DNA of 64,000 bases from Escherichia phage vB_EcoM_EC001, in sequence record MN445185.1; one strand, written 5' to 3'. Below, one piece after another: positions 8,371-51,554 of the stretch. The translations under genes and the position numbers were made by a program. The notes under the pieces are model-generated. The model did not search any database. It had not been told where the DNA came from and saw only the letters and a list, made by a program, of their open reading frames with translations. The first letter of the stretch is position 1. Every line of letters begins with the position of its first letter.

Positions 8371-8430
8371 GGTAAATAAAGCCCTTACCCACTCCCCTTA
8401 CGGGAGTGGGTAAGCACTATTTATTTTCTT
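8371..8430. terminator. Bidirectional intrinsic terminator between convergent genes
   Basis: 13-bp stem CTTACCCACTCCC / GGGAGTGGGTAAG (8384-8396, 8402-8414), A-rich upstream and T-rich downstream. Confidence 0.7.
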
Positions 8431-8908
8431 CTAACGGAACAATCGTAACCGGGGTAGGAACTTCGTCAATAAAGCCGCCGCTGCAGCGAAAGAACGTCAT
8501 CCCTTTACCTTCCCCGGTATGCGGGTTCACATCCGAAAAAGAGTAAGTGGGGCCATCGTTTACGGTTTTATTAATACGGTAATAACGCTCACCTGTGGTG
8601 GTGTTAACATTCCCGTCGATTTTGCCAATTGTATCTTTAAACATCATCGGTGACTCAAGTTTGCCACCGTCCCACGTTGCTACCCAGTTTGCACCCACAT
8701 CCATTACTGTTACTGACCGCGGCATCATTTGTAGGTTGTCCAGTACCGGACGGTAGTCTATAAACTTCTCCTGTGTCCCTGTGCATGTATAAATCACCAA
8801 GTCGCGATTCTTTACCGGTGTGCTGCTAAATTGTCCGATGTTGCTTGGTGACTGGACGCAACCGGTCAACAGGCTTATAAACGCGAATACGATAAATAGA
8901 CGTTTCAT
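8417..8908 (-). CDS. Lipoprotein (signal peptide with lipobox LTGC)
   Basis: N-terminus MKRLFIVFAFISLLTGC; isolated minus-strand gene between a bidirectional terminator and a divergent intergenic region. Confidence 0.65.
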   Translation of the reverse strand: MKRLFIVFAFISLLTGCVQSPSNIGQFSSTPVKNRDLVIYTCTGTQEKFIDYRPVLDNLQMMPRSVTVMDVGANWVATWDGGKLESPMMFKDTIGKIDGNVNTTTGERYYRINKTVNDGPTYSFSDVNPHTGEGKGMTFFRCSGGFIDEVPTPVTIVPLEENK

Positions 8909-30877: not shown

Positions 30878-31087
30878 TTACGCGTTTACGTAATAGATGG
30901 CGTTGCCGAACATTTTGTTGTTGCCGCCACAAGCGGTAACTTTAAATGCTACGCCGCCTTCAGCTTCGGCTTTCTTAGCCAGCGCTTCGGTAACTTCGGT
31001 AACGGTGCTCAGTCCAGAAACCTGAACGGTGCCTGCTTCTACCAGACCAGAAACGTCGCTGCCTGCGGTGATTTCACGAATGCTCAT
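30878..31087 (-). CDS. Small DUF1471-like (YdgH/BhsA/McbA-type) domain protein without signal peptide
   Basis: GTVQVSGLSTVTEVTEALAKKAEAEGGVAFKVTACGGNNKMFGNAIYYV follows the pattern of enterobacterial BhsA-family C-terminal domains; RBS GGAG upstream. Confidence 0.55.
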   Translation of the reverse strand: MSIREITAGSDVSGLVEAGTVQVSGLSTVTEVTEALAKKAEAEGGVAFKVTACGGNNKMFGNAIYYVNA

Positions 31088-35589: not shown

Positions 35590-35630
35590 CTCCAGTAACC
35601 ACGAGGGTTACTGGAGTCCTCTTATTTTTT
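35590..35630 (+). terminator. Intrinsic terminator
   Basis: CTCCAGTAACC / GGTTACTGGAG 11-bp stem followed by CTTATTTTTT. Confidence 0.65.
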
Positions 35631-35663
35631 ACACTTAACTCAAATTAATTTGAGGTGTGGTAT

Positions 35664-36251
35664 ATGACAGAACGTATTTTACGACTGCAAGAGAACAGGT
35701 TAGAAGACCTGCACGTAATGCGTAGTCGCGGCTTGTTCCCAGTGGGGCTTGATGTAAGTGGGTTAATAACTTCTGCGCAGCACGGGGACAGGGTCATTAC
35801 AATGCATTCGCGTGGGAACGAAGTGGTCTCTGCGATTTTCATCGATAAGGTTATTCCGGACTCGGAAAGTGGTAAGGTAGCGGGACACATCATTTACGAA
35901 TACTTTCGCAGCATTCTATACGAGGAAAAGATAAACGTCAAAACTTTTATGGAGTACGCTAAGCGAAATAACTACATCGATGCGCGACTGATGGTCACGG
36001 AAGGCACCCCAACTATAAACGGTAAAGTCCACCATCGTTTACTTGGGGCGCAGTTGCCGAGACTGGGTGAGTTACCGACGACGATAGAGCTACACCAAAA
36101 AACAGATTGGCGACACAAAATCGAAGTGCTTCACAAGCTTTACGATTTATCGATCGTTCAAATCAAACTGGTGGACTTCACGCCTGCAAATATGCAAATC
36201 GCTAAGCGCGCATTGGGTTTTCGTATTCTTAACACAACGTTCACATTGTAA
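35664..36251 (+). CDS. Hypothetical protein
   Basis: ATG 35664 after RBS GAGGTG (the track start 35655 is a GTG inside the RBS). Confidence 0.5.
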   Translation: MTERILRLQENRLEDLHVMRSRGLFPVGLDVSGLITSAQHGDRVITMHSRGNEVVSAIFIDKVIPDSESGKVAGHIIYEYFRSILYEEKINVKTFMEYAKRNNYIDARLMVTEGTPTINGKVHHRLLGAQLPRLGELPTTIELHQKTDWRHKIEVLHKLYDLSIVQIKLVDFTPANMQIAKRALGFRILNTTFTL

Positions 36252-36302
36252 AATATCTCAGATATATATTACTTAGGTGAGAGTTAAGAGATTAACTCAA
36301 CT

Positions 36303-36332
36303 GGCTACCCTCGGGTAGCCTATTCTTTTTTA
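36303..36332 (+). terminator. Intrinsic terminator
   Basis: GGCTACC-CTCG-GGTAGCC hairpin followed by TATTCTTTTTT. Confidence 0.65.
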
Positions 36333-36356
36333 AACCAATCGACTGTAGAGCAAAAC

Positions 36357-36758
36357 ATGACTATCAAGAAGTTCTTACAAACAGTAGTAGTTCTGGCCGC
36401 ATGTGGTATCGCAGCAACTTATGCTTTCGATAAGCCAGACGTGACTGAATACGTATCAGCGGATTCCGATTACGGTATTGCACCGAATGAAAAACCGGAA
36501 CTGATGCGTGAGGTCGAACAGTTACAAATCTACAAACTGACGGATGGTAAGAACTGCACAGGGCTGGTTATCGCTGATAAGAAACTGAAAATGTATCAGC
36601 GGTTAATCGACATATCGTGCGATCAACCAAAAGTCACCTCGGTCAGTGTATCGCCGTTGGAATTGCCAGATCTGGTTGCTGTGAGTTTTTATCACAACGA
36701 TGTGCTCGTTGGTCGCATCACCCTCAATCGTGGAGATATCAAAAATGAAATGCAATAA
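36357..36758 (+). CDS. Secreted/lipoprotein-like small protein, first of a four-gene exported array
   Basis: N-terminal signal peptide with possible lipobox LAAC; two Cys in the mature part. Confidence 0.55.
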   Translation: MTIKKFLQTVVVLAACGIAATYAFDKPDVTEYVSADSDYGIAPNEKPELMREVEQLQIYKLTDGKNCTGLVIADKKLKMYQRLIDISCDQPKVTSVSVSPLELPDLVAVSFYHNDVLVGRITLNRGDIKNEMQ

Positions 36759-37236
36759 CGTTAATCGCCACTTGGCCAAAGTGGTGCTTTTTACTGTGCT
36801 GTTGATGGCACTTGTTGTTGGGCTACGGATTTCTAAGGCACACGCTGACGAATTCAGCGGGTTCCAGGGCAGTATTAACGGCAGCATTCCAGCATATACC
36901 CGCACCATCAATCTTAATGATAAGCCGTTCTGGTGCAATGCGCGTAAGCTGCTTAAGAAACAGTGTCGTGTAGTTGACATATCCTTCAACGGTCGTGTCG
37001 CTATCGTACACCGTCCGGGCGATAAAGATTGCCCAGGTGGTTGGTGGGGTGCAGTCGACCGTCACAACGGTGACGCGTTATGGCTTATCCCTAATCGTGA
37101 TGAACTATCAGTGGAGAAAATTTGCAGCAAAGATTTCAGGGCCGGTTTTGTACAGCGACCGGATACCAAAACTCTGGCCTCCATCGCTATGTACTACGGT
37201 ATGGAAACCATCAAAACAATCGACTATTCAGAATAA
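36745..37236 (+). CDS. Secreted small Cys-containing protein (paralog family)
   Basis: Start at internal ATG after GGAG; signal peptide MKCNNVNRHLAKVVLFTVLLMALVVGLRISKAHA; FWC...C...CPGG motif. Confidence 0.55.
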   Translation: MKCNNVNRHLAKVVLFTVLLMALVVGLRISKAHADEFSGFQGSINGSIPAYTRTINLNDKPFWCNARKLLKKQCRVVDISFNGRVAIVHRPGDKDCPGGWWGAVDRHNGDALWLIPNRDELSVEKICSKDFRAGFVQRPDTKTLASIAMYYGMETIKTIDYSE

Positions 37237-37258
37237 CTCAAAAAATTGAGGTGCTATT

Positions 37259-37669
37259 ATGAAACATTTTTTATTACCAGTTTTACTTGCTACTCTGGCC
37301 ATTAGCTTCTTCGCTCGCGCTGGAAGTATCGAGTTACCAAAAGTTGTTAACGATCACGAATACGGCGGACAGTTCTGGTGCCAGAACTCTGACGTACAAG
37401 GCGGTAGCTGCCAGATCGTTGCGATGTCCGATAACAACCGTTACCTGTTAGTGAAAACGATGGGCGGTGTCGCATGTGGCGACCCTGAATACGGGGTTAT
37501 TAACATGGCAACCGGGCAAGCCGAATCCATGAACTACAATGATAACCAAGCCTGTAGCGGTGAAGCCGTTGCTGAGTTTACACGCGACCCAGGCGACAAT
37601 GCCCTGACGGTTATCATGTACGACCCTACGATTAAGAAAAACGTAGGCATCAATAAACTCGACTTTTAA
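37259..37669 (+). CDS. Secreted small Cys-containing protein (paralog family)
   Basis: Signal peptide MKHFLLPVLLATLAISFFARA; FWCQ...C...CGD motif similar to the previous gene. Confidence 0.6.
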   Translation: MKHFLLPVLLATLAISFFARAGSIELPKVVNDHEYGGQFWCQNSDVQGGSCQIVAMSDNNRYLLVKTMGGVACGDPEYGVINMATGQAESMNYNDNQACSGEAVAEFTRDPGDNALTVIMYDPTIKKNVGINKLDF

Positions 37670-37682
37670 GTAAGGAAACAAC

Positions 37683-38066
37683 ATGCGTGGATTTATGGGT
37701 ATTATCGCGGCGGTGTTCTTGACCGCTTCCGCTTCAGCTACAACCAGCGTAGAAGATTTACTGCCAGGCACACCGTATCAGTACAACCCGCCTTCATTCG
37801 AAGTCTGTACTGGCGACGATGGCAGATGTGAAGAAGTCAGCCGTCACGACGAGTATATCCTGGTCCACGCAAAGGGCGAAGAAACTTGTCCTGCAGGTTA
37901 CTACTTTCTGTTGAACTCAAAGGCACAAGAGATTGTGCCGGTAGAGACAATAACGTGCGACCCGACGCTTCGCGCGTCGCTCGCTTACAATACGAAAACC
38001 AAACAGCGCCTCCTGGTTATTGAACAACAAGGCGAAGTGCGTGGTTCAATAGCGCTCGACCAGTAA
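37683..38066 (+). CDS. Secreted small Cys-containing protein (paralog family)
   Basis: Signal peptide MRGFMGIIAAVFLTASASA; C...C...CPAG...C pattern. Confidence 0.6.
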   Translation: MRGFMGIIAAVFLTASASATTSVEDLLPGTPYQYNPPSFEVCTGDDGRCEEVSRHDEYILVHAKGEETCPAGYYFLLNSKAQEIVPVETITCDPTLRASLAYNTKTKQRLLVIEQQGEVRGSIALDQ

Positions 38067-38078
38067 CCGAAAAGTTTT

Positions 38079-38096
38079 CAGACAGATGTTATAACG
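38079..38096 (+). promoter_or_regulatory. Recurrent intergenic motif CAGACAGATGTTATAACG followed by a hairpin
   Basis: Motif copy 34 nt upstream of GTG 38130; hairpin GTGAGATG...CATCTCAC immediately downstream. Confidence 0.25.
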
Positions 38097-38195
38097 TGAG
38101 ATGACGACCCATCTCACTTTGGCCCTGCGGTGATTTCCCCAACACTTAGCCGCAGGGTCCTTTTTAATCGACTATTACTCGTAAGGATTAAGCAA

Positions 38196-38696
38196 ATGAA
38201 CATGAACATTCTCGACGATACCCGTTCTTCTTTCTTTACTCAGATGAACGTTAACCCTGAACGTACCCGTGCTATTCTTTCTACTGGTTGGAAGTTGAAG
38301 TTGTTAGGCGAGTTAACCCTCAATCGCACCGACTGGCCAGCAGAAGCAACCGTACTGATTAACAGCATCCACAGCGAATGGTTAGATGCTGCGTTGAATG
38401 CCCCACAGCTACGTCCGTACTACCGGATGCTTCACGCGGGATATGAAGTATACCGCAAAGGTTGGTACGATGCAGCCACTTATTGCAAAACCCCTGAAGG
38501 TCGTGAAGACAACACTGTCGACCACGTATTAGTGAATAACTTCTGGGGAGACCAAATTGAGGTCTTACAACTCTCTACCGGTGACCGTATTCCGGCCTGT
38601 GAGTTATTCGAAACTAACGCACAAATGTACGAACCGTATGCAATGATTCGTGGCCATAAGGTCCCAATCATTTCCCTTATGCATATGGGGCTGTAA
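38196..38696 (+). CDS. Hypothetical protein
   Basis: ATG 38196 after RBS AAGGA; the in-frame GTG 38130 (track start) is an alternative. Confidence 0.5.
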   Translation: MNMNILDDTRSSFFTQMNVNPERTRAILSTGWKLKLLGELTLNRTDWPAEATVLINSIHSEWLDAALNAPQLRPYYRMLHAGYEVYRKGWYDAATYCKTPEGREDNTVDHVLVNNFWGDQIEVLQLSTGDRIPACELFETNAQMYEPYAMIRGHKVPIISLMHMGL

Positions 38697-38702
38697 ATAC
38701 GA

Positions 38703-38733
38703 GAGGTAGCCTACGGGCTACCTTCTTTTTTTG
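38703..38733 (+). terminator. Intrinsic terminator
   Basis: GGTAGCC-TACG-GGCTACC hairpin followed by TTCTTTTTTT. Confidence 0.65.
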
Positions 38734-38750
38734 TTGAAGAAGGATTAAAC

Positions 38751-39377
38751 ATGAACGAGATTACCCTGATTCGTTTCATCGACGATATGGTGACGTGTCA
38801 GAAAGCGAATCGTCAGGATACCAAACTGCGTATCAATCTGATGGAAGAAGAGGTAGAAGGGTTTCTGGAATACCCGCGATTGGTGAAGTGGTTTAAAGAA
38901 GCACTGCCGCGTAGCTGGGAACAGCTAGAAGCGTGGTTTGCTCTACCTATTGCAGAACGTAATCCCAATAATACGATCTTCACCGGAACTACTGCATTAG
39001 ATTTGGCTGGTTCGGTGGAGCAACCTAAACGTTTAGTTTTCTTCTACGTCAATGGCGATTCAATAATGGCTGATACAGTTAACTGGATTTCTGATGAGTT
39101 AACTGTAAACACCACATTGGTCGGTAGCGCTGCTGATGCCTGGGTTGTTGGTCAGCACCAATCGCAGCCGTACGAAGAAATCAAAACCGGTTATTTAATC
39201 CCGATATATCTCGACGGCGTGGCACCGGGTCGTAGTGCCGAACTGTTCAAATTCCTGCTTACTGAAACGTTAAAGGTTGTCGATTCTGATGCTGGTCGGG
39301 CGTGGTATGAATTAACCAAAGAGCGCACCGACAGTTTCTGGGAATCACTCGGCCACCGTAAGTTTACTCCGCAATAA
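38751..39377 (+). CDS. Hypothetical protein
   Basis: 208 aa ORF with RBS AAGGA; no phosphoesterase (Mre11/SbcD) motifs seen. Confidence 0.5.
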   Translation: MNEITLIRFIDDMVTCQKANRQDTKLRINLMEEEVEGFLEYPRLVKWFKEALPRSWEQLEAWFALPIAERNPNNTIFTGTTALDLAGSVEQPKRLVFFYVNGDSIMADTVNWISDELTVNTTLVGSAADAWVVGQHQSQPYEEIKTGYLIPIYLDGVAPGRSAELFKFLLTETLKVVDSDAGRAWYELTKERTDSFWESLGHRKFTPQ

Positions 39378-39388
39378 CTCTCCTCTCT

Positions 39389-39421
39389 GGAACCCTTCGG
39401 GGTTCCATTTCTTCTTTTTTA
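39389..39421 (+). terminator. Intrinsic terminator
   Basis: GGAACCC-TTCG-GGGTTCC hairpin followed by ATTTCTTCTTTTTT. Confidence 0.7.
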
Positions 39422-39473: not shown

Positions 39474-41984
39474 ATGCTCAAGGTCGAACGTATCATTTTG
39501 AAAGGATTTACCGGCATGGGGTTACATGAAATCGAAACGTTTGATTTCACCCTCAAGTCCACCGTTACCATCATCCTCGGCGGTAACGGCTGCGGTAAAA
39601 CAAGCCTCCTATCTGTTTTTCTCCCCATAGCTCCAGCAAAATCTGAATTCCGTGAAGGTGGTTCTTACACTAACTACGCGTTAGTCGGGGACGACCGTCT
39701 TAAGTTTGAAGTCCTGCGTCGTGGGTCTTCTCTGTCTTGTAGTATCTTCAACATCACTAAAGGTGTTTCCGTCGTAGACTCGGTAAACGCCAAAGTTTAC
39801 AACTCCATGGTGGAGCAATTAACCGGAATCACCAAAGAAATCAAAGAGTTAATTAATGGTGAGACCTTATTAACTGACGCCACTACCGAAGTTCGTCGTA
39901 AATGGTTTACGTTAATGTCAGAATCTGATCTGACGTACGTTGTTGGTTGTTATCGTCGTCTGCGTAAACTCGCTTCCAGTTTAAGTGGGGCCATTGAGCA
40001 CACCGGCCGTAAAATCGGTGAGGCAAAAATGCGCGTGGTGGACGATGAAGAAGATCGTGCACGTTTGGAAGTTCGTTTGAAAGAACTGGACGTTGAGCTT
40101 CAGGAACTAAACCGCACCATTGAAGCGAGACCCGGTTTAGATAACGCCGTTTCGGTTGATAGTATCCGGAAACGCATTGCTTCGTTGCAACCGGCTGTAA
40201 AACTCATTATGGAGCGTTATGGTGTTCTGCCTTCTGACGAACTGATTAACGAGTTTCAAAGTCGTGTAGTTGCCTGGCGTGAGCAAGCTGCCTCTGCTGA
40301 AACTGAATGCAACATGTACAATAAAGAGTTGTCACAGCTACTGGATGAGGAGTCGCGTCAAGCGTATCTGATGCGCAACCATACCGGTCTAAAACAAACA
40401 ATCGACAGCTTAAAACAGGAACTGGCAACGTTCCAACAGAACTGGATGTTCCCGGCTCTGTTTGAAGGTACCCGCATCGATGTGGATAGCATTCAGAACG
40501 CGTTAAACGATGCCTGTAACTGGAATTTACCGTTGTCCATGCATCTGGACCAGTTAAAGACAACAGAGCGCCTGGGAGCGTTAGAGAAGCGTTTACAGGG
40601 TATGGATTTAACCTCTGCGGGTCTATCTGAAAAGCTGCAACGTTGTGAGAATGTGCTACACGGTTTATACCACGACCGTCAACACTTCTTAGAAACTGCA
40701 GAAGTTGATTGTCCACAGTGTAACCACCGTTTCCGTCCTGGGATTCGTAAGTCGTTACCTGAAATTGAAAAGGCCATCAACGATAATGAAGGTTGGAAGA
40801 AGCAGCTGAAAGACGAAATGGATAGTCTTTTGCGTGACCGCAAAGAGATTGAAGAGGACGTCCGTAGCTTACGTACGATTCGCGAAATCGTCATGTCGTA
40901 TTCCAATCATCCCGTTGTCGGTTTGTTTTTCCGTAAACTGCAGGAGCTGGATATCTTCACCACGGCGCGGGATCGTTACGGTGCCATTGCACGTGCCTTT
41001 ACTGAAGAGTTAGATTCGGCCATGATGTATCTGCGTCAATCGGCGAAGCTTGCAACAGCGGAACGGGAATGGCAAGAGGCTGTTGCCGCAGTAGGTAACG
41101 TTGATGGTGCGCTGAGCCAGAAAATTGAACATATCCGTTCACAACTGGATGGGGCTAACCGTCGACTGATAGAATACCGCAGACAAGCCAATGAGCTGGA
41201 ACGCGAAACCACCCAACTGCAACAAACCAAAGAAGCAATCGAACGTTTCCAAAAGGGCTACGAACATCTGGTATCGGAAATGAACATCTCCGTTAACAAC
41301 GTCGTGGTTCGCGAGTTGTTAAACCGACGCGAAGCGAAGCTCGATGCGTATACTTCCGCTCGTGAACGGTTTCGTCAAATGGAAGGGGCTATTGCACGTT
41401 TAGCGGAACTGGAAAAAGAGCAAGCTGAATTGCTTAAAGAGCATCACCATGCCAGATTGATTATCAATGCCGTCTCACCCGAAAAAGGATTATTGCGTCG
41501 TTACTTTTATGCTGCGATTACCCGCATCATGGATTTAATGAATCGGTATATCGAAATGGTGTGGGCATATCCGATGCAGGTTATTCCATGCGATCTAACC
41601 GACGGGGATTTGGATTATACTTTCCCGGTACGATTAAAAGACCATGAAGAACTGGTGCCGGATGTGAAGAAAGGTTCGAAGGCACAGCGTATTATCTTTA
41701 ACATGATGTTTCGTTTAACGGCGTATAAAGCGCTTGGTTTACAAAACTATCCTTTGTTATTGGATGAACCCTCTGAAGGCATGGATGAGGAACACAAAAA
41801 TCGACTGGTCAACTTCATTAAATCGTTGGCGTTGTCGGGAGAGTTTTCTCAATTGCTGGTCGTTTCGCATGAAGCGGAAGTTCATTCTAAACTTAACGAA
41901 GCCACCTACTGTGTCGTGGAGCCAGAAGGTGTAACGCTTCCACCGGTTTATAACGAAGGGGTAATAATCAAATATGCATCATAA
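39474..41984 (+). CDS. Rad50/SbcC-family ATPase with coiled coil and central CxxC zinc hook
   Basis: N-terminal Walker A GGNGCGKTS; central CPQC in the middle of a long coiled-coil-like region; C-terminal Walker B LLLDEPSEGMD and H-loop VVSHE. Confidence 0.8.
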   Translation: MLKVERIILKGFTGMGLHEIETFDFTLKSTVTIILGGNGCGKTSLLSVFLPIAPAKSEFREGGSYTNYALVGDDRLKFEVLRRGSSLSCSIFNITKGVSVVDSVNAKVYNSMVEQLTGITKEIKELINGETLLTDATTEVRRKWFTLMSESDLTYVVGCYRRLRKLASSLSGAIEHTGRKIGEAKMRVVDDEEDRARLEVRLKELDVELQELNRTIEARPGLDNAVSVDSIRKRIASLQPAVKLIMERYGVLPSDELINEFQSRVVAWREQAASAETECNMYNKELSQLLDEESRQAYLMRNHTGLKQTIDSLKQELATFQQNWMFPALFEGTRIDVDSIQNALNDACNWNLPLSMHLDQLKTTERLGALEKRLQGMDLTSAGLSEKLQRCENVLHGLYHDRQHFLETAEVDCPQCNHRFRPGIRKSLPEIEKAINDNEGWKKQLKDEMDSLLRDRKEIEEDVRSLRTIREIVMSYSNHPVVGLFFRKLQELDIFTTARDRYGAIARAFTEELDSAMMYLRQSAKLATAEREWQEAVAAVGNVDGALSQKIEHIRSQLDGANRRLIEYRRQANELERETTQLQQTKEAIERFQKGYEHLVSEMNISVNNVVVRELLNRREAKLDAYTSARERFRQMEGAIARLAELEKEQAELLKEHHHARLIINAVSPEKGLLRRYFYAAITRIMDLMNRYIEMVWAYPMQVIPCDLTDGDLDYTFPVRLKDHEELVPDVKKGSKAQRIIFNMMFRLTAYKALGLQNYPLLLDEPSEGMDEEHKNRLVNFIKSLALSGEFSQLLVVSHEAEVHSKLNEATYCVVEPEGVTLPPVYNEGVIIKYAS

Positions 41985-42165
41985 AGGTTGGCGCTTATGG
42001 GCTTGGTGGGGTTTTCAGTTCCTTCAGTTTGTTGTGATGGTACTGTACCTCTCCTTTTGTGCAACCGTAGTGGTTATCGCTGCGGTCGTTTATTTAGCTG
42101 CTGCTCTTAAAGAACGTCTGTTCGACACGCGTTGTGAGTGGCGAGATATAGGAGAACGGACATGA
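41974..42165 (+). CDS. Small hydrophobic membrane protein
   Basis: 63 aa; hydrophobic stretch FQFLQFVVMVLYLSFCATVVVIAAVVYLAAAL. Confidence 0.4.
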   Translation: MHHKGWRLWAWWGFQFLQFVVMVLYLSFCATVVVIAAVVYLAAALKERLFDTRCEWRDIGERT

Positions 42166-45635: not shown

Positions 45636-46358
45636 ATGTTTCGCACCATTTTATTTCTTCTGGTAGCAGTGACCACATTCAACAGCAACGCTTCTTACCA
45701 GTCCACCAGTAACAAACATCAAAAAGAATTTGTCCTTATCCAGGACCAGTTCAATGAGATTAAACCTCTCATCGTCTCTGCATCTCGAAAACAAGGCGTA
45801 CATGCCGGGATGCTTGCGACCACCATTTACCGCGAATCCCGTTTTAATAAAAACGTGGGTAAGAATAAATCGAGCAGTGCTAGTAGTGTTGTCCAAATGA
45901 CGACAGGTACTAAACGCTCCATGATACGTCTGTATGGGAAACAACTTAACATCCCAAAGAACGCAGACCTTAATAAACCGAAATATGCTGTACAGCTTGC
46001 TGCTGTTTACATGAAACACATCGAGGATCATCTGACAAAACAACTCAAACGCAAGCCGAGCACAGCCGAAATTGCATTAGGCTACCGCTTCGGTGAGAGC
46101 GCTGCTGTTGCGATGATTAAAAAGAAATCATCGGTCGGGAAACGCTGGATGGACAGCTACCGAAAAGACGCAGCATTCTACGGTGCGAAAATGACGCCAC
46201 CGAAAGCTGAAACACGTCAGCTTGCTTTTGCGAAGGAAGACCGCGACCAACGCGTCGCTGAGCTTCAGAAAATCTGGGATACGCTGTACACCAAAATATC
46301 ACCTGCGGCCGGTACACTACTGGCAAATAACACTATCATGAAAGGAGCATTGCTTTGA
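45636..46358 (+). CDS. Secreted lytic-transglycosylase-like (SLT domain) protein
   Basis: Signal peptide MFRTILFLLVAVTTFNSNA; YRESRFN...SSSASSVVQMTTGT fits the SLT pattern ES....S.A.GLMQ..T. Confidence 0.45.
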   Translation: MFRTILFLLVAVTTFNSNASYQSTSNKHQKEFVLIQDQFNEIKPLIVSASRKQGVHAGMLATTIYRESRFNKNVGKNKSSSASSVVQMTTGTKRSMIRLYGKQLNIPKNADLNKPKYAVQLAAVYMKHIEDHLTKQLKRKPSTAEIALGYRFGESAAVAMIKKKSSVGKRWMDSYRKDAAFYGAKMTPPKAETRQLAFAKEDRDQRVAELQKIWDTLYTKISPAAGTLLANNTIMKGALL

Positions 46359-51074: not shown

Positions 51075-51554
51075 ATGAAGTTATTTTTGGTGGCGATACT
51101 GGTGCTATTGTTGACAGGATGCCCTGGGGTCATCCGTCACGTAGACCCAGATTACTCCTCAACCGGAGATTGGCCTTTTCGTCCTTTAGAACACCCACCA
51201 GTATATAACGGTGGGAACAGTCCTGAGGCGAAAAAGCTGGCAGGGAAAATGTTTGTTGCGGATGTGAACGCTTATGCTTATTACGTTTATCTGTACGCTA
51301 AGTCAGTAAACAACTATGCAGAAGCTAAAGGGTGGCACACCCCGATGACCGCACCGCTTTGTGAAGAGTTTATTCGCCCCACTCTTCATGGTATACCCTC
51401 CGGGATATATCTCGACCCTGGTTCTCGTAGCCCTCAAGACATTAGTCGTGATTTGTCACGACAGATTAAGTCTCTCATTCGCAGCTATCGCGAAGACAGA
51501 GAGTCTTTTAATCGTGCCTACGAACGGCACAAAAGTAGTTGCCTTGTGCAATGA
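51075..51554 (+). CDS. Lipoprotein (lipobox LTGC)
   Basis: MKLFLVAILVLLLTGC signal/lipobox; immediately downstream of the membrane-anchored gene; followed by terminator 51558..51597. Confidence 0.6.
   Translation: MKLFLVAILVLLLTGCPGVIRHVDPDYSSTGDWPFRPLEHPPVYNGGNSPEAKKLAGKMFVADVNAYAYYVYLYAKSVNNYAEAKGWHTPMTAPLCEEFIRPTLHGIPSGIYLDPGSRSPQDISRDLSRQIKSLIRSYREDRESFNRAYERHKSSCLVQ

What the first reader, a model, noticed from the sequence alone, without database searches (positions are those of the whole stretch)
36357..38066. Tandem array of four small exported proteins with conserved Cys spacing
Four consecutive genes (133, about 163, 136 and 127 aa) each encode an N-terminal signal peptide, the first possibly a lipoprotein. 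The mature parts have conserved Cys positions (FWC-x8-12-C ... C-P/G-x-G). A paralog array of periplasm-targeted disulfide proteins in a phage early region suggests factors acting on envelope targets (superinfection exclusion, inhibition of host periplasmic enzymes, or anti-defense). Function is unknown.
Basis: partly seen in the sequence, partly recalled or inferred. Interest (0 to 1): 0.55.

Follow-up and report, generated by a model that had tools for sequence, protein, structure and literature searches.

The report
Jumbo-phage array of exported YfjS-like proteins
Four neighbouring genes of a Salmonella jumbo phage encode small proteins that appear to be exported to the periplasm, and they are distant relatives of YfjS/YafY, an E. 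coli genomic-island lipoprotein family of unknown function; what they do is still untested.

Summary
The window is an SPN3US-like jumbo phage, and the four ORFs are SPN3US gp180-183: 36357-36758, 36745-37236, 37259-37669 and 37683-38066. All four have N-terminal signal-peptide features, and 50 of 53 family members pass the same heuristic.

- **Paralogy.** B, C and D are clear paralogs with four conserved Cys. A is a divergent paralog that keeps only the second Cys pair. Its lipobox is not conserved in orthologs.
- **Distribution.** The A-(B)-C-D order is conserved across four phage genera. An exhaustive profile search of 1.84 billion proteins found only 24 clusters.
- **Bacterial relatives.** Some clusters are chromosomal. 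They sit in CP4-57/CP4-44-type islands, often exactly where E. coli K-12 carries yfjS.
- **Link to YfjS/YafY.** Profile comparisons link the phage family to Pfam PF20494 (hhalign 94% probability). A phage-only HMM ranks YfjS/YafY sequences first among 306 island ORFs.
- **Fold.** The AlphaFold model of B (pLDDT 85) is a small all-beta domain. It has no close PDB relative and does not resemble lysozyme inhibitors or spanins.

Function is inferred only. The proteins are most likely periplasmic binding modules acting at the inner membrane, either in exclusion or in envelope-stress (Cpx) signalling. YafY is one of only two E. coli lipoproteins whose overproduction activates Cpx. Interest is moderate.

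The parts
36357..36758 (+). Gene A (SPN3US gp180 ortholog, 133 aa). Predicted exported protein and divergent paralog that keeps only the second Cys pair (C67, C88).
   Evidence: ORF. 99% identical to SPN3US gp180. phrog_9424. hhalign of A type vs D type gives 88% probability, E 3e-6. Orthologs occupy the same position in phiEaH2, ChrisDB, Huxley and Wellington.
36357..36428 (+). Signal peptide of A (aa 1-24, predicted TYA|F cleavage). Contains a lipobox-like LAAC16 that is not conserved.
   Evidence: Heuristic. Orthologs P0025, P0026, P0028 and the Wellington copy lack the Cys but keep ATYAF(D/E)KP.
36745..37236 (+). Gene B (gp181 ortholog, 163 aa). Predicted exported 4-Cys protein (C64, C74, C96, C127). 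This is the type shared with bacterial islands.
   Evidence: phrog_17072. AlphaFold model pLDDT 85.5, with the mature domain at 89-96. 41% identical to Yersinia rohdei island protein P0020.
36745..36846 (+). Signal peptide of B (aa 1-34, predicted AHA|D cleavage).
   Evidence: Heuristic. AlphaFold places a helix at residues 6-29 ahead of a low-confidence linker.
37259..37669 (+). Gene C (gp182 ortholog, 136 aa). Predicted exported 4-Cys protein (C41, C51, C73, C99).
   Evidence: phrog_8968. 39-45% identical over its full length to E. coli, Salmonella and Serratia island proteins (P0038, P0039, L028, L029) with the same Cys spacing.
37259..37321 (+). Signal peptide of C (aa 1-21, predicted ARA|G cleavage).
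   Evidence: Heuristic.
37683..38066 (+). Gene D (gp183 ortholog, 127 aa). Predicted exported 4-Cys protein (C42, C49, C69, C92). This is the paralog closest to YfjS/YafY.
   Evidence: phrog_5248. hhalign of the D-type profile vs YfjS gives 88.7% probability. The D-type HMM ranks YfjS/YafY first among 306 ORFs. AlphaFold core pLDDT is about 60-84.
37683..37739 (+). Signal peptide of D (aa 1-19, predicted ASA|T cleavage).
   Evidence: Heuristic.
36303..36331 (+). Terminator-like GC hairpin plus T run in the 105-nt spacer upstream of A.
   Evidence: The fold gives z = -2.7 for the spacer. Function not shown.
38096..38168 (+). Two hairpins (38096-38117 and 38121-38159). The second is followed by CUUUUUAAU, between D and gp184. 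This is the likely 3' boundary of the four-gene unit.
   Evidence: The fold gives z = -3.3. Sequence. Function inferred.

Best explanation
**What it is.** The locus is a conserved operon-like array of four paralogous proteins of an SPN3US-like jumbo phage (gp180-183). They appear to be Sec-exported. Each consists of a cleavable signal peptide and one small all-beta domain of roughly 85-115 residues. One or two disulfides probably hold the domain together, pairing C1-C2 and C3-C4.

**Family.** The domain belongs to a small superfamily shared between Seoulvirus, Erskinevirus, Machinavirus and Wellingtonvirus jumbo phages and CP4-57/CP4-44-type genomic islands of Enterobacterales and Aeromonas. 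It is a remote, non-lipidated relative of the YfjS/YafY inner-membrane lipoprotein domain (Pfam PF20494).

**How it most likely works (inferred, not shown).** After export and oxidation by the host Dsb system, each paralog acts as a binding module in the periplasm, at or near the outer face of the inner membrane. Each engages a different host envelope component, to the benefit of the incoming mobile element. I consider two outcomes most likely.
- Blocking entry of further phage or DNA, as exclusion factors do.
- Manipulating envelope-stress (Cpx) signalling. This is the only phenotype known for a family relative, YafY.

**Status of each step.** Shown: gene structure, paralogy, synteny, island homologs and the fold class. 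Predicted from sequence features only: export. Moderately supported: homology to YfjS/YafY. Inferred: disulfides, site of action and target.
For: **Identity and conservation**
- The region is 96-97% identical in nucleotides to SPN3US and relatives, where all four genes are annotated as hypothetical.
- The A-(B)-C-D order is kept upstream of two genes of about 166-208 aa (gp184/185 orthologs) and the SbcC-like gene in phiEaH2, ChrisDB, Huxley and Wellington. CR5 carries a single copy.

**Export and paralogy**
- Signal-peptide features are present in 50 of 53 members.
- BFVD structure search with the B model finds only the orthologs and paralogs in Erwinia jumbo phages.

**Size of the family**
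- Only 24 clusters reach E <= 1e-3 among 1.84 billion representatives.
- Members include chromosomal proteins of Klebsiella, Enterobacter, Citrobacter, E. coli, Salmonella, Serratia, Yersinia, Photorhabdus and Aeromonas.

**Island context**
- In 10 of 10 Enterobacterales (Klebsiella, Enterobacter, Escherichia, Kluyvera, Yersinia) loci the order is YfjP-YfjR-[member]-YfjT-YfjQ-YfjX-RadC-YpjJ-YfjZ-YpjF. The member occupies the yfjS slot of E. coli K-12 CP4-57.
- E. coli C-type homologs lie directly upstream of DUF932, an antirestriction gene, RadC, YeeT, CbeA and CbtA.
- Yersinia rohdei ATCC 43380 carries a tandem pair of members.
- The phiEaH2 B protein is 71% identical to the Yersinia island protein but only 45% identical to the window's B. 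This suggests gene exchange between phages and islands.

**Link to YfjS/YafY**
- hhalign of the phage family against a YfjS/YafY alignment gives 94.4% probability, E 8.8e-8, over 73 columns, with both Cys aligned.
- Controls: the real score is 42.7, the reversed alignment scores 11.5, and the best of 40 column shuffles scores 26.
- A D-type HMM built only from phage sequences puts all 8 YfjS/YafY sequences on top of 306 island ORFs, at 20-27.6 bits. No unrelated ORF scores above 6.7 bits.

**Fold**
- The B model has pLDDT 85.5 and is all-beta.

**Functional hint from the literature**
- Of 90 E. coli lipoproteins overproduced, only NlpE and the inner-membrane lipoprotein YafY activated Cpx (PMC6538781, PMC6593411, PMC3158067).
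Against: **No functional data.** There is none for any member of the 4-Cys family.

**The YfjS/YafY link is remote.**
- The Pfam PF20494 HMM does not hit any of the four proteins at E <= 1.
- The exhaustive profile search did not retrieve YfjS/YafY.
- The link is carried by the D type. B/C-type and A-type profiles alone give 1.8% and 0.6% probability, although in the same register. Another mixed alignment gives 60%.
- No structural comparison with YfjS could be made.

**Differences from YfjS/YafY.** YfjS and YafY are lipoproteins retained in the inner membrane. B, C and D have ordinary signal peptides, so their site of action could differ.

**Weak points in the functional inference.**
- Cpx activation by YafY was seen on overproduction and may be non-specific. 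Deleting yafY had no phenotype in the trafficking-stress assays.
- The phage has no YfjT partner.
- Export was predicted with a home-made heuristic, not with SignalP or by experiment.
- Expression timing is unknown.
Confidence: 0.5

Rival explanations
1. The proteins are periplasmic inhibitors of peptidoglycan hydrolases. In this reading they work like T4 Spackle or like Ivy, MliC or PliG. They would bind either the tail-associated or exported lytic transglycosylase of a superinfecting phage, or the phage's own exported SLT-domain enzyme, or host lytic transglycosylases. The effect would be to prevent premature or external lysis.
For: - They are predicted to be exported and are small, probably disulfide-bonded domains.
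- The same window encodes a 240-aa SLT-domain protein with its own signal-peptide-like N-terminus at 45636-46358. A periplasmic muralytic activity is therefore present during infection.
- Established knowledge: T4 Sp is a periplasmic inhibitor of the gp5 lysozyme.
Against: - There is no Ivy-type CKPHDC loop.
- Homologs sit in non-lytic genomic islands that carry no muralytic gene nearby.
- The SLT gene is 7.5 kb away and is not syntenic with the array.
Confidence: 0.15
2. The proteins are dedicated modulators of the Cpx envelope-stress pathway. They would mimic the YafY and NlpE signal by binding CpxA or CpxP at the inner membrane. The infected cell, or the island's new host, would then remodel its envelope: chaperones and proteases up, surface appendages and porins down.
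For: - They are remote homologs and slot equivalents of YfjS/YafY.
- YafY is one of only two lipoproteins out of 90 whose overproduction activates Cpx.
Against: - About 15% sequence identity (14-19%) does not carry function.
- The Cpx effect may depend on the lipid anchor or on overload, and the phage proteins are not lipidated.
- A transcriptional response may be too slow to matter within a lytic cycle.
- It is unclear why four conserved paralogs would be needed.
Confidence: 0.15
3. The array is part of the lysis machinery, for example spanin-like or antiholin-like periplasmic components.
For: - A and B overlap by 14 nt, and A carries a lipobox-like LAAC. This superficially recalls overlapping spanin gene pairs.
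- The proteins are predicted to be exported and contain Cys.
Against: - i-spanins have an N-terminal transmembrane domain and an alpha-helical coiled-coil periplasmic domain, and the o-spanin gene follows the i-spanin gene (PMC12894885).
- Here the domains are all-beta globular.
- The lipobox is on the first gene and is not conserved.
- Homologs occur in islands with no lysis genes.
Confidence: 0.03
4. The hydrophobic N-termini are membrane anchors or targeting signals for a phage-made membrane compartment, not for the periplasm. One candidate is the early infection vesicle described for nucleus-forming jumbo phages, whose lumen would be topologically equivalent to the periplasm.
For: - The phage belongs to a phiKZ-related jumbo-phage group.
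- Papers on such an early-infection vesicle turned up in the literature searches but were not read. That the vesicle derives from the inner membrane and that its lumen is topologically periplasmic is my own assumption, not taken from those papers.
- Sec-dependent signals would in principle also deliver proteins into such a lumen (inference).
Against: - The same domain with the same kind of signal peptide is encoded by non-phage islands in many genera. A generic periplasmic role is therefore more economical.
- Good -3/-1 cleavage sites are conserved.
- No data place any such protein in a vesicle.
Confidence: 0.05

Closest known systems
YfjS/YafY lipoprotein domain (Pfam PF20494) of E. coli K-12 elements CP4-57 and CP4-6
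   Same: - It is a small exported all-beta-type domain of similar length.
- It shares the motif C-x-G-G-(Y/W)(Y/G)-x-(L/V)-(N/D) ... C ... G-x-x-x-G-x-phi-x-phi, with both Cys aligned.
- Bacterial members of the phage family occupy the same gene slot, between the yfjR-like regulator and yfjT.
- Its taxonomic range is restricted to Enterobacterales mobile elements.
   Different: - The Pfam model does not detect the phage proteins.
- YfjS and YafY are inner-membrane lipoproteins (lipobox LSAC followed by Asp) with two mature Cys. B, C and D have signal-peptidase-I type signals and four Cys.
- The phage carries four tandem paralogs and no YfjT.
NlpE, the other Cpx-activating lipoprotein
   Same: It is relevant only through YafY. 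Both activate Cpx when overproduced.
   Different: No sequence or fold relation was found. NlpE is an outer-membrane lipoprotein with two domains.
T4 Spackle (Sp), and phage or plasmid exclusion lipoproteins such as T5 Llp, phi80 Cor and RP4 TrbK (from my own knowledge)
   Same: These are small exported or lipid-anchored proteins that a mobile element makes to act in the envelope against incoming competitors. This is what I think the array most likely works like.
   Different: No sequence similarity was detected in the PHROGs or Pfam scans. The folds differ or are unknown. Exclusion activity has not been tested here.
Periplasmic lysozyme inhibitors Ivy, MliC/PliC, PliG and PliI
   Same: They are small periplasmic or lipoprotein beta-rich proteins with disulfides.
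Two-blade fragments of beta-propellers, and small lipoproteins 4l1n (Clostridium novyi) and 4id2 (DUF4738)
   Same: These are the best structural matches for both models, a beta-meander of seven strands.

Membership tests
Pfam PF20494 YfjS/YafY lipoprotein domain | Match to the family HMM above the gathering score | tested here: not met
   The Pfam scan of A-D gave no family at E <= 1. Island homologs P0020, P0042, P0038 and P0039 also gave none. YfjS itself scores 228 bits.
Pfam PF20494 YfjS/YafY lipoprotein domain | Remote homology of the C-terminal core of about 70-90 residues, including the conserved Cys pair | tested here: met
   hhalign gives 94.4% probability and E 8.8e-8, and 88.7% with the D type alone. 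Shuffle and reversal controls score far lower. A phage-only D-type HMM ranks YfjS/YafY first among 306 ORFs at 20-27.6 bits. Caveat: A-type and B/C-type profiles alone do not reach significance.
Pfam PF20494 YfjS/YafY lipoprotein domain | Lipoprotein signal peptide with a lipobox and an inner-membrane retention residue (Asp at +2) | tested here: not met
   B, C and D have no lipobox. A has LAAC16 followed by Gly, and the Cys is absent in orthologs.
Pfam PF20494 YfjS/YafY lipoprotein domain | Location between the yfjR-like WYL regulator and yfjT in a CP4-57-type island | tested here: met
   Met for the bacterial members of the phage family in 10 of 10 Enterobacterales (Klebsiella, Enterobacter, Escherichia, Kluyvera, Yersinia) loci. 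It does not apply to the phage copies, which lie upstream of gp184, gp185 and the SbcC-like gene.
Pfam PF20494 YfjS/YafY lipoprotein domain | Cpx/degP induction on overproduction (YafY phenotype) | not testable with these tools
   Known only from the literature, for YafY.
Periplasmic lysozyme inhibitors (Ivy, MliC/PliC, PliG, PliI) | Family HMM match or shared fold | tested here: not met
Two-component spanins | An i-spanin with an N-terminal transmembrane domain and a coiled-coil alpha-helical periplasmic domain, followed by or embedding an o-spanin lipoprotein gene | tested here: not met
   The mature domains are predicted to be all-beta. The only lipobox is on the first gene and is not conserved. 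Criteria are taken from PMC12894885.
Known anti-phage defence proteins (PADLOC-DB) | Match to a defence-system HMM | tested here: not met
   No hit for A-D, P0020, P0042 or YfjT. YfjS (P0053) gave only a weak match to the WYL model, E 0.029, which I regard as spurious.
Virion structural proteins of SPN3US | Detection in purified particles | tested here: inconclusive
   gp180-183 are not mentioned in the main text of the SPN3US virion proteome paper. In its held supplements only gp183 appears, in a homolog table. The virion mass-spectrometry table itself could not be read.

The most novel reading that the evidence does not exclude
The 4-Cys proteins and YfjS/YafY together would form a previously unrecognised superfamily of periplasmic effectors carried by mobile elements. 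These effectors would dock onto inner-membrane envelope sensors or entry machinery, for example the CpxA/CpxP/NlpE axis or the channel used for DNA entry. The jumbo phage would keep four specialised paralogs to reprogram or seal the envelope of the cell it has just entered. The polymorphic yfjS slot of CP4-type islands would then be an exclusion or envelope-control locus exchanged with phages.
Probability: 0.2. Interest if true: 0.7.

Novelty: new variant of a known kind. Interest (0 to 1): 0.42.

Why it matters
- **Unannotated proteins get a family.** Jumbo phages are studied mostly for what they do inside the cytoplasm, such as the phage nucleus, RNA polymerases and import. Almost nothing is known about what they send to the periplasm. 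This array is conserved across four jumbo-phage genera, so it is likely to be useful to the phage.
- **It connects phages and islands.** Linking the array to the yfjS/yafY slot of CP4-type islands gives about 1,400 database sequences labelled 'hypothetical' or 'secreted protein', in Klebsiella, Enterobacter, Citrobacter, E. coli, Salmonella, Serratia, Yersinia, Photorhabdus and Aeromonas, a common family. It also ties them to the one known phenotype, Cpx activation by YafY.
- **It yields cheap experiments.** These include reporter assays, plating efficiency on cells expressing each paralog, and pull-downs. They could also explain a long-standing E. coli y-gene.
- **If they are exclusion factors, they matter for phage cocktails.** Several cocktails against Salmonella and Erwinia contain these phages.

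Tried and rejected
**Searches that found nothing**
- Pfam, NCBIfam and PADLOC scans of the four proteins and their island homologs returned nothing. PHROGs returned only families of unknown function.
- A word-indexed homolog search with B alone found only near-identical phage proteins.
- blastn of gene C against 5,426 complete E. coli genomes found no DNA-level match.
- tblastn of YfjT and of canonical YfjS against 50,697 phage records found no match. The phage therefore has no YfjT partner and no canonical YfjS.
- The P0042 type is absent from IMG/VR viral contigs, which supports an island rather than a prophage origin.

**Tools or sources that were unavailable**
- Foldseek against AFDB was not installed.
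- The SPN3US infection-proteome paper (Weintraub 2019) is not held, so detection and timing of gp180-183 remain unknown.

**Ideas tested and dropped**
- I recalled a phiKZ-type early-promoter motif, TATATTAC. It occurs once in the window, at 36265-36272 just upstream of A. One occurrence is what chance gives (mean 1.7 in shuffles), and the recollection was not confirmed in the paper I checked. No timing claim is made.
- The spanin and lysozyme-inhibitor readings were rejected on predicted fold.
- The lipoprotein status of A was rejected as a family feature.
Full report
**What the window is.** The stretch 35600-39400 is 96-97.5% identical in nucleotides to Salmonella jumbo phages of the SPN3US group (Seoulvirus): JN03, the SPFM phages, SEGD1 and SPN3US itself. 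The four ORFs correspond to SPN3US_0180 to 0183 (gp180-183, YP_009153474-77), all annotated 'hypothetical protein'. They are 97-99% identical in protein to their SPN3US counterparts. They lie in a run of + strand non-structural genes. Upstream are several unknown genes. Downstream are gp184, gp185 and the SbcC-like gp186 (39474-41984). The literature reports gp186 as an essential gene.

**Checking the observation.** The ORFs are A 36357-36758 (133 aa), B 36745-37236 (163 aa), C 37259-37669 (136 aa) and D 37683-38066 (127 aa). A and B overlap by 14 nt, and the other gaps are 22 and 13 nt. SignalP was not available, so I scored n-region charge, an uncharged hydrophobic 10-mer and a -3/-1 cleavage site.
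- All four pass. B failed only when read from the longer 36700 start.
- 50 of 53 distinct family sequences pass. The three failures look truncated or mis-started.
- Among 74 non-overlapping window ORFs the heuristic flagged nine, three of them in this array (B was read from the 36700 start in that pass and failed).
- The AlphaFold model of B has a helix at residues 6-29, then a low-confidence linker, then a confident domain.

The lipobox of A (LAAC16) is not conserved. Orthologs P0025, P0026, P0028 and the Wellington copy have no Cys there, but they keep the ATYAF(D/E)KP site. A signal-peptidase-I substrate is therefore more likely than a lipoprotein.

**Cysteines and paralogy.** B, C and D each have four mature Cys with similar spacing. 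A has two. In a 19-sequence alignment of the window proteins with those of phiEaH2, ChrisDB, Huxley, Wellington and CR5, the second Cys pair is invariant. The first pair is missing only in the A type and in the single CR5 copy. That pattern fits C1-C2 and C3-C4 disulfides, which is an inference.

The paralogy statistics are:
- blastp: B-C 4e-7, B-D 5e-5, C-D 0.04, and nothing significant for A (best B match E 1.5).
- PHROG cross-hits between the families of B, C and D.
- hhalign, D type vs B/C type: 97.7% probability, E 2e-12.
- hhalign, A type vs D type: 88%, E 3e-6, over 77 columns with both Cys aligned.
- Foldseek of the B model against BFVD returns, at E <= 2e-3, only proteins of Erwinia jumbo phages from this family, including D-type proteins.

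**Conservation of the array.** The order A-(B)-C-D, followed by the gp184 and gp185 homologs and the SbcC-like gene, is kept in phiEaH2 (Erskinevirus), ChrisDB and Huxley (Machinavirus) and Wellington (Wellingtonvirus). The last has an extra D-like copy. CR5 has a single two-Cys copy elsewhere in its genome. Identities to the window proteins run from 30 to 61%, comparable to neighbouring genes. The paralogs are therefore old, and each has been kept. That speaks for four distinct roles rather than recent amplification.

**How large the family is.** A word-indexed search with B found only phage copies and one Salmonella record. A search with the family alignment found 25 clusters. An exhaustive HMMER search of 1.84 billion representatives with a family profile found 24 proteins at E <= 1e-3. 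Cluster look-ups show that several are bacterial and common:
- A 150-aa type with 1,037 members in Klebsiella, Enterobacter, Citrobacter and E. coli.
- A 147-aa type in Aeromonas.
- Two C-like types in E. coli, Salmonella, Citrobacter and Serratia, some labelled 'secreted protein'.
- B-like proteins in Yersinia rohdei and Photorhabdus.

**Genomic context of the bacterial relatives.**
- The Yersinia protein P0020 lies between a WYL regulator and a YfjT homolog. DUF932, RadC and CbeA/CbtA follow.
- A scan of one genome per species found 15 loci for the 150-aa type. I called their ORFs and compared them with E. coli K-12 CP4-57 proteins. In 10 of 10 Enterobacterales (Klebsiella, Enterobacter, Escherichia, Kluyvera, Yersinia) loci (nine from that scan plus the Yersinia rohdei locus) the order is YfjP - YfjR - [family member] - YfjT - YfjQ - YfjX(LfgA) - YfjY(RadC) - YpjJ - YfjZ - YpjF.
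- In K-12 the gene between yfjR (plus the tiny ypjK) and yfjT is yfjS, an inner-membrane lipoprotein.
- E. coli C-like homologs, 39-45% identical to the window's C with the same Cys spacing, sit directly upstream of DUF932, an antirestriction gene, RadC, YeeT, CbeA and CbtA. These were found in records filed as plasmids.
- Yersinia rohdei ATCC 43380 has two family members in tandem.
- The phiEaH2/Stratton B protein is 71% identical to the Yersinia island protein but only 45% identical to the window's B. This suggests that genes of this family have moved between islands and jumbo phages.
- The 150-aa type is absent from IMG/VR viral contigs.

**Relation to YfjS/YafY.** By eye, YfjS shares with D the stretch C-E-G-G-S-Y-Y-Y-L-V-D ... 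C ... D-G-K-L-M-G-R-L-L-I-P. The tests gave the following.
- D-type profile vs YfjS: 88.7% probability, E 2.6e-6, 91 columns.
- Whole phage family vs a seven-sequence YfjS/YafY alignment: 94.4%, E 8.8e-8, 73 columns, both Cys aligned.
- In my own run the real score was 42.7. The reversed alignment scored 11.5, and the best of 40 column shuffles scored 26.0.
- A plain HMM built only from phage D-type proteins placed all eight YfjS/YafY sequences at the top of 306 island ORFs (20-27.6 bits). No unrelated ORF scored above 6.7 bits.

The link is not uniform. A-type and B/C-type profiles alone are not significant, although they align in the same register. A different mixed alignment gives 60%. The Pfam model PF20494 does not detect the phage proteins. 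The exhaustive search did not reach YfjS. Taken together with the slot equivalence, which is independent evidence, I put homology at about 0.8.

**Fold.**
- The D model, from a 28-sequence alignment, has mean pLDDT 64.5, with the core at 60-84 and seven strands.
- The B model, from a 23-sequence alignment that includes bacterial members, has mean pLDDT 85.5, with the mature domain at 89-96. It has seven strands and two short helices.

This is a resemblance of architecture only. No lysozyme inhibitor appears among the matches, and nothing suggests a coiled coil.

**What it most likely does.** There is no direct evidence. The constraints are these.
- The proteins appear to be exported and are probably oxidised in the periplasm.
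- They form a binding-type beta domain with no catalytic signature.
- The relatives YfjS and YafY are anchored in the inner membrane.
- The domain sits in the backbone of CP4-type islands, next to genes typical of establishment in a new host (antirestriction, RadC, DUF932, toxin-antitoxin). The content of that slot is polymorphic: lipoprotein, 4-Cys protein or tandem pair.
- Four anciently diverged paralogs are kept in lytic jumbo phages.
- Of 90 E. coli lipoproteins overproduced, only NlpE and YafY activated Cpx.

I therefore commit to periplasmic binding modules that act at or near the inner membrane on host envelope components. My leading guess is exclusion of further incoming phage or DNA (about 0.3). 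Cpx or envelope-stress manipulation follows (about 0.15), then inhibition of muralytic enzymes (about 0.15). The last gains a little from a signal-peptide-bearing SLT-domain protein in the same window at 45636-46358. It loses from the lack of any inhibitor-like fold and from the island homologs. Spanins are excluded by the fold.

**Transcription unit.** A GC hairpin plus T run lies in the spacer before A (36303-36331). Two hairpins follow D, and the second is followed by a U run (38096-38168). This fits a separate four-gene unit but proves nothing. Only three sigma-70-like sites were found in the 34-40 kb region (fewer than the 8.9 expected from shuffles), none positioned to drive the array. 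Expression timing is unknown. The motif I recalled as a phiKZ early promoter occurs once, which is the chance level.

**Novelty and verdict.** The proteins are unannotated in every library tried. The connection between a jumbo-phage paralog array, the yfjS slot of CP4-type islands and PF20494 does not appear in any paper returned by my searches. I file the array as a new variant of a known kind. It is a divergent, non-lipidated, four-Cys branch of the YfjS/YafY-like exported domain, expanded to four copies in phages. Interest is moderate. The finding is real and gives a testable lead on an E. coli y-gene family and on what jumbo phages do in the periplasm, but no function is established.

Noticed in passing
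window 45636-46358 (+): A 240-aa protein with a signal-peptide-like or SAR-like N-terminus (MFRTILFLLVAVTTFNSNA|SY) and an SLT lytic transglycosylase domain (PF01464; phrog_4067 'transglycosylase'). It is probably an exported or SAR-type endolysin of this phage.
   Followed up: partly
window 30878-31087 (-): A 69-aa protein consisting only of a YdgH/BhsA/McbA-like (DUF1471) domain (PF07338, E 3e-11). In enterobacteria this domain belongs to periplasmic stress proteins. Here it has no signal peptide.
   Followed up: partly
window 8417-8908 (-) and 51075-51554 (+): Two predicted lipoproteins of 163 and 159 aa, both with the lipobox LLTGC. They fall in phrog_9559 and phrog_8165, both of unknown function. 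The window therefore encodes several more envelope-targeted proteins.
   Followed up: partly
window 41974-42165 (+): A 63-aa very hydrophobic small protein (gp187 ortholog, phrog_16515) whose start overlaps the end of the SbcC-like gene. It may be a membrane protein.
   Followed up: no
L002 2067-2552 (phiEaH2) vs L008 8001-8501 (Yersinia rohdei chromosome): The phiEaH2/Stratton B-type protein is 71% identical to a Yersinia rohdei island protein but only 45% identical to the SPN3US-type B. This points to fairly recent gene exchange between jumbo phages and CP4-type islands.
   Followed up: partly
L023 8001-8429 and 8492-8890 (Yersinia rohdei ATCC 43380); L013 and L014 (Klebsiella sp. MISC125): One island carries two family members in tandem, with the second where yfjT usually sits. 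One Klebsiella chromosome carries two copies of the whole island module.
   Followed up: partly
L012 12446-13616 (E. coli K-12 CP4-57) compared with L013-L021: The slot between yfjR and yfjT is polymorphic among islands. K-12 has ypjK plus the lipoprotein gene yfjS. Klebsiella, Enterobacter, Kluyvera, Escherichia sp. and Yersinia have a soluble four-Cys protein instead.
   Followed up: partly
window 36265-36272 (+): TATATTAC sits in an AT-rich stretch just upstream of the hairpin before gene A. It occurs once in the window, which matches chance expectation, so no promoter claim can be made.
   Followed up: yes
phage records LR535901-LR535917 (SPFM phages): About half of the SPFM phage records match this region only in about 40 short pieces, and they yield frameshifted ORFs (P0003-P0008, P0031-P0033). 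This looks like indel-rich assemblies rather than biology.
   Followed up: no
L016 3790-5574 (-), L028 1-3478: Just upstream of the conserved island module lie candidate defence genes. K. pneumoniae ATCC 13883 has a 594-aa protein that looks to me like an OLD/AAA-type ATPase. E. coli pB39_V has a dynamin-family protein, RdcB and a patatin-like phospholipase.
   Followed up: no
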